Assembly: GCF_006345805.1 (NCBI RefSeq)
Contig: NC_042998.1
Location: 103,912,001 to 103,976,000, forward strand
Length of the DNA: 64,000 nt
Origin: Octopus sinensis
Lineage: Eukaryota
Direction of reading: 5' to 3'
Shown here in pieces: positions 37,366-46,605 of this stretch (positions within the stretch are counted from its first letter, which is position 1; the number at the start of each line of letters is the position of its first letter). The translations under genes were made by a program, and so were the position numbers. The notes under the pieces are model-generated. The model saw only the letters and a program-made list of their open reading frames with translations. It was not told the origin of the DNA and made no database searches.

Positions 37366-37741
37366 CTAGCAGTATCGCCCGGCGTTGCTCGGGTTTGTAA
37401 GGGAAATAATTATATAAGCATTTTTAGAGATGTAAAGTATAATAGCCATCTCAATATGGCTAACCACAAAGGGGGAGGGGTGTTACTGTAGCTTTTTACG
37501 TTCTGAGATTTAATAATAAATTTTAGAGAGTTACTTCCCTTATATATGTCAAAAATGGATTAAAAATGGGAAAAATTGATGGTAAATTTTTTTTTAATCG
37601 TAGACTCATCGTAGACGGTTTCGATATGAATCACGACTATAAGATACCCGGTTTTGGTTAAACTGCACCGCAAAATGTGGGAGTAGTTAGGAATCTAAAT
37701 CGTAGGAGACAGACACACAACCTCACTTTTATATATAAAGA
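37366..37741 (-). mobile_element. Non-autonomous Helitron
   Basis: Minus strand starts TC, ends with hairpin cccgagcaacgccggg then CTAG, and sits between A and T with no TSD. Confidence 0.8.
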
Positions 37742-37899
37742 TTTCCTCTATTTACATAATATTGAGGTCTCTTTCTTTCTTTTGTTATCTTACTGTTTTT
37801 ACCAATATACATATATATATATAAATATATATATAGTTACAGAGATGTACTTGCATAGCAAGTGACTTGATCTGAGATCGTGTGCTGGAACGAAAACAG

Positions 37900-38159
37900 T
37901 TGCAGCGTTGAAGGTGTTTATAAGCCATTTAAGAAACACACAAAAACCGTAAGATTCACTTCAACATTTAAATTTAATTTGTCAAAATATTTTCGTCGCT
38001 TTGAGACCGCGACCTGTTAGCACGATATTTTTTGTCAGTGAACAGGTCGCAGTCTCAAAGCGACGAAAATATTTTGGCAAATTAAATTTAAATGTTGAAG
38101 TGAATGTAACGGTTTTTGTGTGTTTCTTAAATGGCTTACAAACACCTTCCACGCTGCAA
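37900..38159. repeat. Long inverted repeat (arms 37900-38018 and 38041-38159, 22-nt spacer), PLE pLTR-like
   Basis: ~119-bp arms are reverse complements with a handful of mismatches; (TA)n on both outer sides. Confidence 0.92.
38031..38081 (+). ncRNA. Minimal type-I hammerhead ribozyme, G3-C8 core variant
   Basis: TTTGTCA-GTGAACA-G-GTCGC-agtctcaaa-GCGAC-GAAA-ATAT-TT-TGGCAAA: 7-bp stem I (one G-U), 5-bp stem II, palindromic stem III (AATATT). Confidence 0.72.
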
Positions 38160-38234
38160 TATATATATACACACATATATATATATGTATGTATGTATGT
38201 ATGTGTGTATATGTGTATGCATGTATGTGTGTGT

Positions 38235-38458
38235 GTGTGCGTGTCTGTGCTTGTGATTGTCCTCCACCACTGCTTGACAACGAATGTTGGTTTGTTTACA
38301 TCCCTGTCACCTAGTGGTTTGACAAAGGAAACAGATAGAATAAGTACAATGCTTACAAAAATAAAACTGGAGTTGATTCATTAAAGTACAATTCTTCAAG
38401 GCATTGCCCCAGCATGGCCACAGACCAATGGCTGGAAAAAGCAGAAGAATAAAAGAAT
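38235..38458 (+). mobile_element. SINE family A, 3' half
   Basis: gcttgacaac...gatagaataagtac...ccagcatggccacag..aagaataaaag. Confidence 0.7.
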
Positions 38459-38524
38459 ACATTCTCTGCTTTGGTCTTATGTTCAAGGCATGAGAAAGCT
38501 TGAGTTTACATGAGAAGGCCTAAC

Positions 38525-38786
38525 AGACCTGGTAGAAACAGCAGCCAAATCTCCCTCAAATCACACCTTACTGTCTTATGTATGTATATATATATGAGCC
38601 AATGAGGGGGACCTCTACATGGTAGCTAGACCTGGTAGAAATAGGAGCCAAATTTCCCCCAAATCACACCTTACTGTCTTATCTATGTATGTATGTATGA
38701 GCCTATGTGGGAGACCCCTACATGGCAGATAGACATGGTAGAAATAGCAGCCAAATCTCCCTCAAATCACACCTTACTGTCTTATC
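38525..38786 (+). repeat. Three tandem copies of a ~105-bp unit
   Basis: agacctggtagaaa.agcagccaaatctccctcaaatcacaccttactgtcttat at about 38526, 38627 and 38731. Confidence 0.85.
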
Positions 38787-38850
38787 TTTCTGCTACTTGG
38801 ATATAGGTCTTATATTCATCGTAAAAAACTTTCCTGTCACACACTCACGC

Positions 38851-38888
<38 letters not shown>

Positions 38889-38900
38889 CCTCACACACAC

Positions 38901-38936
<36 letters not shown>

Positions 38937-39723
38937 CACACACGCACGTTAGCTTACAATTTTATTTATATATTTGCGTGTCTATGTGTGGAAAAAGGAA
39001 GTGGGAGGCAGAGTGAAAGAATCACTCACTACAGTAAGTGAATTACTTTCATTTTATTCGTTGCCCACTGTGTGTGTGCGTTTGCGTGTGGTGTAAACCA
39101 GACTAAGAAAAGCATTTGACACACACACCAGAATGTGAGTTTTCTGTAAATTTTGCTTAATTGGAGTTTAAATTTTAAAAACTGGACCTGGCATGACGCG
39201 ATGCATTGTACTCTTAAAAATGCTAGGTAAATTGTAATTGAAGAAATCCTATATTGTAGATTTGTATAACTCCCAAAGGGAGGCAGATAAAATCTGCCTT
39301 TTATAATAAGAGATATACACAATTACTATGGCTGTATGCACCTATCTCCACTATCCAGCAAGAATATTGAGTGCTAATTTGAACTGAAATCTTACCAGCC
39401 TTATGCAGGAATACAACACAAATATACGAGTAAATATATACATCTACACATGGAATTGCATGAATATGTGCATACAATTAGATAGAAAGAAAGAGAGAGA
39501 GAGAGCGTTCTGTTGTATGCAAGCTGTAAGTTATTGCATGCATATTTAAATATTGTGAGAGTCATCCGTTATAAAAACCAGTAATATTTGATAAAAGCCA
39601 ACCGCGTATATATTTTGCTGGTTTTACTATCTGTCATCCGATGCAGTAACATTTCTTGAGTTTTAGGTACCTTTAAGAGTCCATTTCCTTGCAACCATTC
39701 CGTGAACTAAATTCAAAATTCCA

Positions 39724-45528: not shown

Positions 45529-45715
45529 ATGTATGCATTTGTGTGTCTGTGTTTGTCCTCCCTACCATCGCTTGACAAGTGATTTTGGTGTGTTTACGGT
45601 CATGTAGCTTGGCGGTTCACCAAAATGAGACCGATAGAATAAGTACTAGGGTTACGAAGAATAAGTCTTGGAGTCGATTTGCTTAACTAAAAGGCGGTGC
45701 TAAATGACTGACATA
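44718..45715 (+). mobile_element. SINE family A split by a LINE insertion (5' half 44718-44865, 3' half 45465-45715)
   Basis: Head and core end at cccgtcatatatc; the body resumes after (CT)n with tttgtgtgtctgtgtttgtcc..gcttgacaa..gatagaataagtactagg. Confidence 0.75.
44881..45400 (+). mobile_element. 3' end of a non-LTR retrotransposon (probably L1/Tx1-like ORF2 C-terminus + 3' UTR)
   Basis: Reads LKGLETNTFLSGESLINFFKYHLKRKARVEKEVLSSEYFKKRMVNLARM, followed by a pyrimidine-rich UTR and a tail ending attaaagaaac at (CT)n. Clade assignment is from recollection of similar C-termini, not from a diagnostic motif. Confidence 0.55.
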
Positions 45716-45779
45716 AGTATCTCTATCTAAGTCATTCCTCAGGATGCCCATAAGAATAAAAGCATATATATATATATAC

Positions 45780-45810
<31 letters not shown>

Positions 45811-45904
45811 TGTATGTATGTATGTATGTATGTATGTATGTATGTACATTTCGTTTTGGGATTTGGTTTGCAAGATTCTTTATCTGAGTTTGCGTGCTGA
45901 AGCA

Positions 45905-46173
45905 TATTTTGTCGTGTCTGGGGAGTCATTTTCTTTTAGTGCCTTATTAGTTAAAAAATCTCACCGGTAAAGTTTCCCCTCCTTTACTTATTTATTTTTG
46001 CAAAAATTTTCGTTGCGTCTTGCAACCTTTTCAATATTTTTTCGATAGTCAATAGTCAACAACTATTGAAAAGGTTGCAAAAGGCAACGAAAATTTTAGG
46101 AAGCTAAAATGAGTGGAAACTTTACCGGTGTGATAATACGGCATTAAAAAGAATGACTCGCCCCAGACACAAC

Positions 46174-46178
<5 letters not shown>
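45905..46178. repeat. Imperfect long inverted repeat (arms about 45905-46036 and 46064-46178), PLE pLTR-like
   Basis: ttgtcgtgtctgggg..caccggtaaagtttcc..ttttcgttgc..tgcaaccttttcaata is mirrored by tattgaaaaggttgca..gcaacgaaaa..ggaaactttaccggtg..ccccagacacaacaa. Confidence 0.88.
46063..46099 (+). ncRNA. Minimal type-I hammerhead ribozyme, U3-A8 core variant; second copy on minus strand at about 46000-46037
   Basis: CTA-TTGAAAA-G-GTTGC-aaaag-GCAAC-GAAA-AT-TT-TAG: stem I CTA/TAG, 5-bp stem II, AATT palindrome as stem III. Confidence 0.65.
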
Positions 46179-46221
<43 letters not shown>

Positions 46222-46222
<1 letters not shown>

Positions 46223-46605
46223 GGTGCAGGAGTGGCTGTGTGGTAAGTAGCTTGCTTTCAAACCACATGGTCCTGGGTTCAGTCCTACAGTGTCTTCTAC
46301 TATAGCTTTGGGCCGACCAAAGCCTTGTGAGTGCACTTGGTAGACGGAAACTGGAAGAAGCCTGTCTTATATGTATATATATGTATAGGTATGTGTGTGT
46401 ATATGTGTGTCTGTCCCCCCAATGTCGCTTAATAACCGATGCTGGTGTGTTTATGTCCCCGTAACTTAGCGGTTCGTTAAAAGCGACCGATAGAATAAGT
46501 ACTAGGGTTACAAAGAATAAGCTCTGGGGTCGATTTGGCAGACTAAAGGCGGTGCTCCAGCATGGTCGCAGTCAAATGACTGAAACAAGTAGAAGAGTAA
46601 AAGAG
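46222..46605 (+). mobile_element. SINE family A, near complete
   Basis: A box TGGCTGTGTGG, B box GGTTCAGTCC, core, central microsatellite, tail aaatgactgaaacaagtagaagagtaaaagag. Confidence 0.88.

What the first reader, a model, noticed from the sequence alone, without database searches (positions are those of the whole stretch)
45848..46178. Sister family of the 38-kb element with U3-A8 core and compensatory stem II change
Seen: same architecture as 37826-38160 (longer inverted left arm, short spacer, HHR at the centre, (TA)n on the right) and a similar outer segment (gcaagattctttatctgagtttgcgtgctgaag vs gcaagtgacttgatctgagatcgtgtgctggaa). The HHRs differ by paired changes: G3-C8 vs U3-A8, stem II GTCGC/GCGAC vs GTTGC/GCAAC, and palindrome AATATT vs AATT. 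Both keep the extra G after A9, and TTGAAAA is present in both arms. Inference: two independent compensatory substitutions between homologous families are the best in-window evidence for a selected RNA structure.
Basis: partly seen in the sequence, partly recalled or inferred. Interest (0 to 1): 0.75.

Follow-up and report, generated by a model that had tools for sequence, protein, structure and literature searches.

The report
Penelope retrotransposon ends with hammerhead ribozymes
This 330-base palindrome is two head-to-head copies of the front end of a Penelope-like retrotransposon, carrying a predicted minimal hammerhead ribozyme whose base pairs are swapped in matched fashion in sister families, and it was likely made when both cut ends of the target DNA each primed reverse transcription.

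Summary
Observation confirmed. 45848-46178 (family A) and 37836-38160 (family B) are inverted pseudo-LTR (pLTR) plus tail insertions of two sister Penelope-like retrotransposons (PLEs) with the Neptune/Nematis zinc-finger linker. The A arm follows a GIY-YIG ORF in 26 of 30 loci, and both families were found attached to RT-endonuclease ORFs (proteins 49-53% identical). The shared 'outer segment' is the tail: it encodes the protein's first codons, which explains the resemblance. A third sister family has C3-G8. Across the three families five hammerhead pairs change, always to another Watson-Crick pair. U3-A8, the extra nucleotide after A9 and opposite-strand pairs are published; cleavage is untested, family A's stem I is only 3 bp, and the palindrome's own transcript would bury the ribozyme. 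The B copy is a passenger in a 1.95-kb Helitron-like carrier. Most interesting: each palindrome has its own junction and ~12-bp target duplication, arms stop at a shared 5' edge often with an extra G, and 2 of 26 B insertions join arms of different subfamilies. This favours double priming on sense RNAs over fold-back. New member of a known kind.

The parts
45848..45903 (-). Tail of family A: extension present on one arm only; roughly codons 9-28 of the PLE ORF, read on the minus strand
   Evidence: reads in frame into the RT-endonuclease ORF in locus L205
45904..46042 (-). Left arm: pLTR of family A in minus orientation, start codon at 45929 (frame disturbed in this copy), hammerhead N3 at 46034
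   Evidence: left arm plus tail 168 of 192 identical to the pLTR of L205
46043..46057 (.). Copy-specific junction between the two arms
   Evidence: junctions differ from copy to copy
46058..46178 (+). Right arm: tailless pLTR of family A, start codon at 46153; carries a deletion private to this copy
   Evidence: 106 of 124 identical to the pLTR of L205; deletion pattern found once in the genome
46063..46099 (+). Minimal type I hammerhead motif: stem I 46063-65/46097-99, core 46066-72 (U3-A8), extra G 46073, stem II 46074-78/46084-88, GAAA 46089-92, palindrome 46092-95, predicted cleavage after 46096
   Evidence: cleavage not tested
45781..45846 (.). (TATG)n left flank; target duplication cannot be resolved in this copy
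46175..46222 (.). (TA)n right flank (target microsatellite)
37836..38160 (.). Family B inverted pLTR plus tail (tail 37836-37899, arms 37900-38018 and 38041-38159, G3-C8 hammerhead N3 at 38038); 37928-37836 on the minus strand reads as the 31 N-terminal residues of the family B ORF
   Evidence: 164 of 181 identical to the pLTR of full-length locus L412
37366..39313 (-). Non-autonomous Helitron-like carrier that amplified the B copy as a passenger (5' TC, 3' hairpin and CTAG, between A and T)
   Evidence: 29 of 29 other top hits share the flanks; ends; the Helitron hallmarks are recalled

Best explanation
The element is an abortive insertion of a Neptune/Nematis-type Penelope-like retrotransposon, made of two head-to-head copies of its pseudo-LTR, which holds a predicted minimal hammerhead and the first codons of the RT-endonuclease gene, and it was likely formed by both nicked target strands each priming reverse transcription. 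Shown: the arm is the pLTR of RT-GIY-YIG elements; the tail is coding; every insertion has its own junction and a ~12-bp target duplication; arm 3' ends fall at two fixed sites about 55 nt apart; the hammerhead pairs co-vary across three sister families. Inferred: the element's RNA starts at a capped A 13 nt upstream of the hammerhead core; the protein makes a ~12-nt staggered cut in AT-rich DNA; one end primes at the tail end and the other at the arm end; both cDNAs run toward the RNA 5' end, often stop early, and are joined head to head by end joining. The ribozyme would act only in the master's RNA (as a trans or tandem dimer, probably protein-assisted); the templates of these inserts were uncleaved. 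The palindrome in the window is most likely dead on arrival. Odds: PLE pLTR identity 0.97; hammerhead-shaped fold selected in the masters 0.9; double priming on sense RNA 0.65; real self-cleavage by family A 0.45.
For: Linkage: A arm on the same strand 388-959 nt after the GIY-YIG ORF in 26 of 30 loci (25 of 29 without the seed), against 1 of 20 mixed GIY-YIG loci. L205 is a partial tandem whose tail reads into the ORF and matches the N-terminus of RT-endonuclease protein P0019 (E 6e-10); the tail-to-ORF junction recurs in 20 of 30 loci found with the downstream peptide. L412 is pLTR-ORF-pLTR for family B. Linker CX3-4CxxC in A, B and F. Tail peptides: frame +1/+1 is best of 36 frame pairs, 0 of 2000 shuffles reach it, codon-position identity 14/18/8 of 22 for A-B and 21/22/14 of 26 for A-F. 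Insertion anatomy in 70 loci chosen only by the tail: 43 inverted; duplication of 8 nt or more in 23 of 28 non-microsatellite cases against 5% by chance; tailless arm reaches further 5' in 28, tailed arm in 7, equal in 8; 19 of 113 arm ends at -14 to -10. Extra G at that edge in 24 of 40 arms where the genome has C or T. Two of 26 B insertions have arms of different subfamilies. Both strands are cut and extended from two internal start sites in vitro for an anole PLE (PMC11167929).
Against: No activity or expression data. Stem I of A is 3 bp, with first-pair probability 0.23-0.53 and a competing hairpin over the core in one of two copies folded (both A copies); its AAUU palindrome duplex is +2.2 kcal/mol. 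Four B pLTRs attached to ORFs have a mismatched G3-G8 (three share a deletion and may be one event). Family F has C at position 9 and a non-palindromic stem III. B-F codon-position pattern is flat (13/15/12 of 22). A strict in-frame motif across the tail end was found in only 5 of 30 loci. Pfam RVT_1 did not hit the A-family fragments; RT identity rests on motifs and BLAST to RVT_1-positive PLE proteins (E 3e-7 to 5e-9). Mixed arms are rare and could come from later gene conversion; the extra G could be favoured by junction microhomology; primer-template microhomology was modest (13 of 23 and 8 of 17 with 2 nt or more, no null computed). Only 16 of 70 tail flanks are (TA)n.
Confidence: 0.9

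Rival explanations
1. Same PLE origin, but the palindrome forms by fold-back self-priming of one strand (on an antisense template, as proposed for rotifer PLEs), not by two priming events.
For: Proposed from junction palindromes in PMC3846280 (passages). Arms of one insertion are usually of the same subfamily (20 of 26 differ at one diagnostic column or none). Several junctions carry short duplications of the leader.
Against: Folding back a tail-primed cDNA needs the tailed arm to reach at least as far 5'; the tailless arm reaches further in 28 of 43. Two B insertions have arms differing at 5 and 6 of 9 linked columns. The shared 5' edge with an extra G fits a capped sense RNA. Either arm can be kilobases long (L199, L215).
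Confidence: 0.25
2. The hammerhead-shaped fold is kept in the masters as a protein-binding, promoter or translation element and cleaves little or not at all.
For: 3-bp stem I in A, C9 in F, G3-G8 in some B copies. Inserts keep sequence on both sides of the predicted cut. In the anole PLE, ribozyme mutants did not affect insertion in vitro and no reads began or ended at the cut (PMC11167929).
Against: The 3-8 pair, a tertiary pair of the catalytic core, stays Watson-Crick in three different states, and the invariant core letters are kept. The anole ribozyme cleaves when protein is added and the C3G/G8C double mutant is partly active.
Confidence: 0.35
3. The palindrome is itself a self-propagating non-autonomous unit (MITE, foldback element or retrozyme) copied whole.
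For: Thousands of candidates (3424 for A, 2369 for B); the top B hits are 99% identical including the junction.
Against: The identical B copies ride in a 1.95-kb carrier (29 of 29). Independent A and B copies have different junctions and arm lengths. No tandem head-to-tail repeat here.
Confidence: 0.03

Closest known systems
EN+ Penelope-like elements of the Neptune/Nematis type; inverted pLTR plus tail as in Adineta vaga Pen2a_Av (PMC3846280) and Fig. 2 of PMC8557442
   Same: RT plus C-terminal GIY-YIG, CX2-5CxxC linker, direct and inverted pLTRs, tail on one end, pLTR plus tail covering the first codons, ~10-bp-scale target duplication, partial tandems
   Different: Tail ~55-60 nt rather than 30-40; most copies are body-less palindromes; not placed against named Neptune or Nematis references
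Minimal type I hammerheads of metazoan PLEs (Cervera and de la Pena 2014, PMC4209133)
   Same: U3-A8 variant, unpaired nucleotide between 9 and 10.1, G10.1-C11.1, palindromic stem III, opposite-strand pairs 100-700 bp apart
   Different: G3-C8 in family B was not seen in the parts read; stem I of A is 3 bp against the 4-5 bp described (2 bp in D. virilis)
PAc/Poseidon from Anolis carolinensis (PMC11167929)
   Same: Two internal RT start sites that delimit the tail, inside the ORF start; uncleaved RNA as template; AT-rich target
   Different: Poseidon clade lacks the linker finger; ORF starts inside the ribozyme there, 52-98 nt after it here; the passages read do not derive inverted pLTRs from double priming
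Non-LTR retrozymes (bioRxiv 10.64898/2026.07.22.740005)
   Same: Non-coding pLTR-derived sequence with a type I hammerhead
   Different: Retrozymes are head-to-tail tandems; this is a head-to-head pair with one sense ribozyme per strand

Membership tests
EN+ Penelope-like element | ORF with RT and C-terminal GIY-YIG endonuclease linked to the repeat | tested here: met
   In partner loci, not in the window: 26 of 30; Pfam GIY-YIG E 1.5e-6; L205, L412. RVT_1 itself did not hit the A fragments
EN+ Penelope-like element | pLTRs in direct or inverted orientation, inverted 5'-truncated copy | tested here: met
   L199, L201, L215 inverted; L205, L412 direct; 43 of 70 inverted
EN+ Penelope-like element | Tail on one end only; pLTR plus tail includes the first codons | tested here: met
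   Arm ends +123 to +135 in 39 of 43, tail end about +185; in-frame continuation
EN+ Penelope-like element | Target site duplication | tested here: met
   23 of 28 with 8 nt or more, 5% by chance; 12 nt in 11 of 23; not resolvable at the window copy
EN+ Penelope-like element | Spliceosomal intron (optional feature) | not tested
   No RNA reads laid
Neptune or Nematis clade | CX2-5CxxC finger between RT and endonuclease | tested here: met
   Present in A, B, F, absent in the two other octopus PLE proteins used; definition from PMC8557442
Neptune or Nematis clade | (TA)n insertion bias | tested here: inconclusive
   16 of 70 tail flanks are (TA)n; no genomic background computed
Neptune or Nematis clade | RT phylogeny with named references, to tell Neptune from Nematis | not tested
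   Tree has no named reference elements
Minimal PLE hammerhead | Core boxes with a Watson-Crick 3-8 pair, extra nucleotide after 9, G10.1-C11.1 | tested here: met
   U-A in 112 of 129 A arms, G-C in 100 of 104 B arms
Minimal PLE hammerhead | Palindromic 15-16 segment | tested here: met
   AATT in A, AATATT in B; central A-A mismatch in F
Minimal PLE hammerhead | Helix I of 4-5 bp | tested here: inconclusive
   7 bp in B, 3 bp in A; a 2-bp helix I is described for D. virilis
Minimal PLE hammerhead | Self-cleavage as a dimer | not testable with these tools
   Needs an in vitro assay
Non-LTR retrozyme | Head-to-tail tandem units each with a hammerhead | tested here: not met
   Head-to-head pair in the window; a 331-bp tandem of the A pLTR exists elsewhere (L407)
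MITE or foldback DNA transposon | Fixed unit with terminal inverted repeats copied whole | tested here: not met
   Asymmetric ends and copy-specific junctions

The most novel reading that the evidence does not exclude
Thousands of octopus pLTR palindromes record how Penelope-like elements build their inverted ends in vivo: a dimeric RNP holding two capped, uncleaved sense RNAs primes cDNA from both ends of a 12-nt staggered cut, one at each internal start site, and the two cDNAs are joined head to head; mixed-subfamily arms are the direct trace of two templates. The three sister families also give a natural C-G / U-A / G-C series at the hammerhead 3-8 pair, with G3-C8 as a natural core.
Probability: 0.5. 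Interest if true: 0.62.

Novelty: new member of a known kind. Interest (0 to 1): 0.38.

Why it matters
As a class this is known: PLE pseudo-LTRs with minimal hammerheads. It matters in two ways. How PLEs form inverted repeats is called unresolved in PMC8557442, and antisense self-priming was the proposal in PMC3846280; these abundant short inserts make that testable by counting alone and currently favour double priming. And three sister families with C-G, U-A and G-C at the 3-8 pair are a ready natural series for asking whether PLE hammerheads really cleave and whether the element's protein is needed. It also warns annotators that such palindromes are not MITEs or host RNA genes.

Tried and rejected
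Rfam at gathering threshold: no match. Reading the 99%-identical B hits as a young PLE burst: rejected, they are passengers of one carrier. First labelling that carrier a Helentron/HINE (notebook, passages): replaced by Helitron-type ends on the minus strand. A 450-nt sequence after the tail in two loci as the ORF continuation: rejected, it is another repeat; 8 of 30 of its copies have A directly upstream and none has an A-type ORF. The window's right arm as a second subfamily: rejected, its deletion is unique. First GIY-YIG hits with 780-aa ORFs: other PLE families, 23-27% identical to A. Searching B flanks for an endonuclease within 1.5 kb found none of its own family in 78 loci; its 3' UTR is ~1.1 kb and the partner was found by protein instead. 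Primer-target microhomology: not convincing. The pair count (100% paired, 0 of 500 shuffles) is not used as evidence: rows were picked for an intact motif and stand for three families. Sequencing runs: no RNA holder listed; no reads were laid, so expression and RNA ends remain open. R-scape and other cephalopod genomes were not available. Earlier scan notes: none. Lunse et al. 2017 (PMC5785218) is not held.

Full report
Observation. The two elements resemble each other beyond chance (score 74, 0 of 1000 dinucleotide shuffles; outer segments 34, 0 of 1000), but only in the hammerhead and the outer segment; the stretch between them does not align (330 of 1000 shuffles score as well). Rfam finds nothing at gathering threshold. 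The host is inferred to be an octopus: 2.72-Gb assembly, and an Octopus vulgaris protein is 92% identical to a related element.

Copy number and independence. Family A (this finding) has 3424 first-look candidates and 2224 exact matches to a 29-nt tail pattern. Its copies have unrelated flanks and different central junctions. The window copy is old: its right arm is 15% from the column majorities against a median of 5.7% for 129 arms, and a right-arm deletion is unique in the genome. The 38-kb copy is different: 29 of 29 other top hits share about 1.95 kb of flank, whose ends read A|TC ... hairpin-CTAG|T on the minus strand, the Helitron signature as I recall it. So its 99% identity reflects the carrier. 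Independent B insertions do exist (48 loci by tail patterns; 30 by a leader pattern).

What it is. A Pfam GIY-YIG search of the genome gave one locus of 20 with an A arm behind the endonuclease. Searching with that protein, 26 of 30 loci (25 of 29 without the seed) have the A arm on the same strand 388-959 nt after the ORF. Longer loci show RT-endonuclease bodies ending in pLTR plus tail with an inverted tailless pLTR at the other end (L199, L201, L215). L205 is a partial tandem in which the tail reads in frame into the ORF and aligns with the N-termini of three unrelated-source RT-endonuclease proteins (E 6e-10, 3e-8, 1e-5); DNA across that junction recurs in 20 of 30 loci found with the downstream peptide (these include the seed, one family F locus and two overlapping loci), though a strict in-frame motif survived in only 5 of 30. 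The same search led to family B's partner: L412 is pLTR, a 608-codon frame starting with the B tail peptide, a second 475-codon frame with the endonuclease, a ~1.1-kb 3' UTR and a tailless pLTR. A and B proteins are 49-53% identical. A third family, F, was noticed by protein homology (57% to A); 13 of 30 F loci carry their own endonuclease within 1.5 kb. All three have the CX3-4CxxC linker that marks Neptune and Nematis (PMC8557442). They group in a tree at 89/99, below the tool's strong-support line, and no named references were included. Pfam RVT_1 did not hit the A fragments.

The outer segment is the PLE tail and is coding. Frame +1/+1 is the best of 36 frame pairs in all three comparisons, with 0 of 2000 shuffles reaching it; codon-position identity is 14/18/8 of 22 (A-B), 21/22/14 of 26 (A-F) and a flat 13/15/12 of 22 (B-F). 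That pLTR plus tail covers the first 22 codons is already described for a rotifer element (PMC3846280).

The hammerhead. On 129 A, 104 B and 38 F distinct arms the majority pairs are: 3-8 U-A, G-C, C-G; 10.3-11.3 U-A, C-G, C-G; 10.4-11.4 G-C, G-C, A-U; 2.2-1.2 U-A, C-G, C-G; 2.3-1.3 C-G, U-A, C-G. Five of the nine pairs compared (3-8, five of stem II, three of stem I) vary and all stay Watson-Crick; A and B differ by four double changes, not two. F is an out-of-sample check because it was found by protein. This is three families, not a formal statistic, and stems were partly defined by complementarity. A descriptor scan of 1.38 Mb of fetched DNA gave 143 sites, 138 with a Watson-Crick 3-8 pair, dominated by A and B, with three further families. 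Against activity: stem I of A is 3 bp and competes with a hairpin over the core; the AAUU duplex is +2.2 kcal/mol; F has C at position 9; four ORF-linked B pLTRs have G3-G8, three probably from one event. A transcript through the window palindrome folds into one long hairpin (-134.5 kcal/mol, z -14.8) that buries the motif, and carries only one sense ribozyme. U3-A8, the extra nucleotide after 9, palindromic stem III and opposite-strand pairs are in Cervera and de la Pena 2014; natural U3-A8 also in PMC3088659. An engineered C3G/G8C double mutant is partly active (PMC11167929). Searches for a natural G3-C8 core and for octopus hammerheads listed none, but the most relevant paper (Lunse 2017) is not held and I opened no supplements, so I do not claim it is new.

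How the palindrome forms. In 70 A loci chosen only by the exact tail pattern (the first 70 of 2224, all on contig 1; biased to tailed, younger copies), 43 have an inverted tailless arm (two with spacers over 300 nt may be separate events). Tailless arms end at +123 to +135 in 39 of 43, the tail near +185. Target duplications of 8 nt or more occur in 23 of 28 cases without microsatellite flanks (5% by chance; 15 cases set aside), 12 nt being commonest. Of 113 arm 5' ends, 19 lie at -14 to -10, none at -15 to -23, 4 at -24 to -40 and 13 run on into the 3' UTR; the rest are truncated further in. The tailless arm reaches further 5' in 28, the tailed arm in 7, equal in 8, which simple fold-back of a tail-primed cDNA cannot give. 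In both families the edge is an A after a pyrimidine, and arms that stop there have a G in front in 24 of 40 cases (8 of 12, 2 of 2, 5 of 12, 9 of 14; p 4e-8 against 0.2 and 4e-4 against 0.33). I read this as a copied cap; that reading is recalled from other retrotransposons, my search gave no paper that I read, and junction microhomology or a splice acceptor (B has a branch-point-like and pyrimidine-rich stretch there) are alternatives. Arms of one insertion mostly share subfamily variants (20 of 26 B loci differ at one column or none of 9), but L273 and L276 differ at 5 and 6; both lie in (TA)n, so no duplication confirms them as single events. The A data are uninformative on this (9 unbiased loci) or biased (6 of 29 top hits). 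Together with the in vitro result that an anole PLE cuts and extends both strands from two internal sites, double priming is the best reading (0.65); fold-back remains the rival (0.25).

Papers seen: PMC4209133 parts 1-2 of 4; PMC11167929 parts 1-2 of 4 plus passages; bioRxiv 2026.07.22.740005 part 1 of 5; passages only of PMC8557442, PMC3846280, PMC13282606, PMC6765202, PMC3088659, PMC4067079. Unseen supplements may list mollusc hammerheads or G3-C8 cores.

Verdict. Real, correctly observed, and a new member of a known kind: inverted pLTR plus tail of sister Neptune/Nematis-type PLEs with minimal hammerheads. Interest 0.38, mostly for the mechanistic record in the junctions and the natural 3-8 series.

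Noticed in passing
window 37366-39313 (-): Non-autonomous Helitron-like element of ~1.95 kb, ~96% identical between copies, carrying the family B palindrome, a SINE-like piece and a 103-bp tandem repeat as passengers.
   Followed up: partly
L116 7150-7380; L409, L418, L420: Third sister family F with C3-G8 core, C at position 9, variable extra nucleotide and non-palindromic stem III; youngest of the three (median 1.9% from column majorities); its 5' edge lies further upstream than in A and B.
   Followed up: partly
L407/L408 (G000:C2 near 192.75 Mb): Three head-to-tail copies of the family A pLTR, tail and ORF start with a 331-bp period: a retrozyme-like array in which hammerheads could pair in cis.
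   Followed up: no
L103 1174-4874, L107, L118: A young PLE family without the linker finger has a 479-aa upstream ORF with no clear Pfam match overlapping a 781-aa RT-GIY-YIG ORF; two-ORF organisation is unusual for this type as far as I recall.
   Followed up: no
L086, L100, L101 near 6020, L164 near 2029: Further minimal hammerhead families: U3-A8 with ACATGT palindrome, C3-G8 with ACTCGAGT, C3-G8 with extra A and ACGT; at least one also sits in a palindromic insert.
   Followed up: no
L413, L414, L416, L428: Family B pLTRs attached to ORFs with a mismatched G3-G8 core.
   Followed up: partly
L320-L351: A ~600-bp repeat (1051 candidates) in which one family A insertion recurs at the same point in 8 of 30 copies: a second case of a pLTR amplified as a passenger.
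   Followed up: partly
window 45540-45740 and 46220-46600: The A copy is flanked by two copies of a common SINE-like repeat that recurs in many loci; not classified.
   Followed up: no
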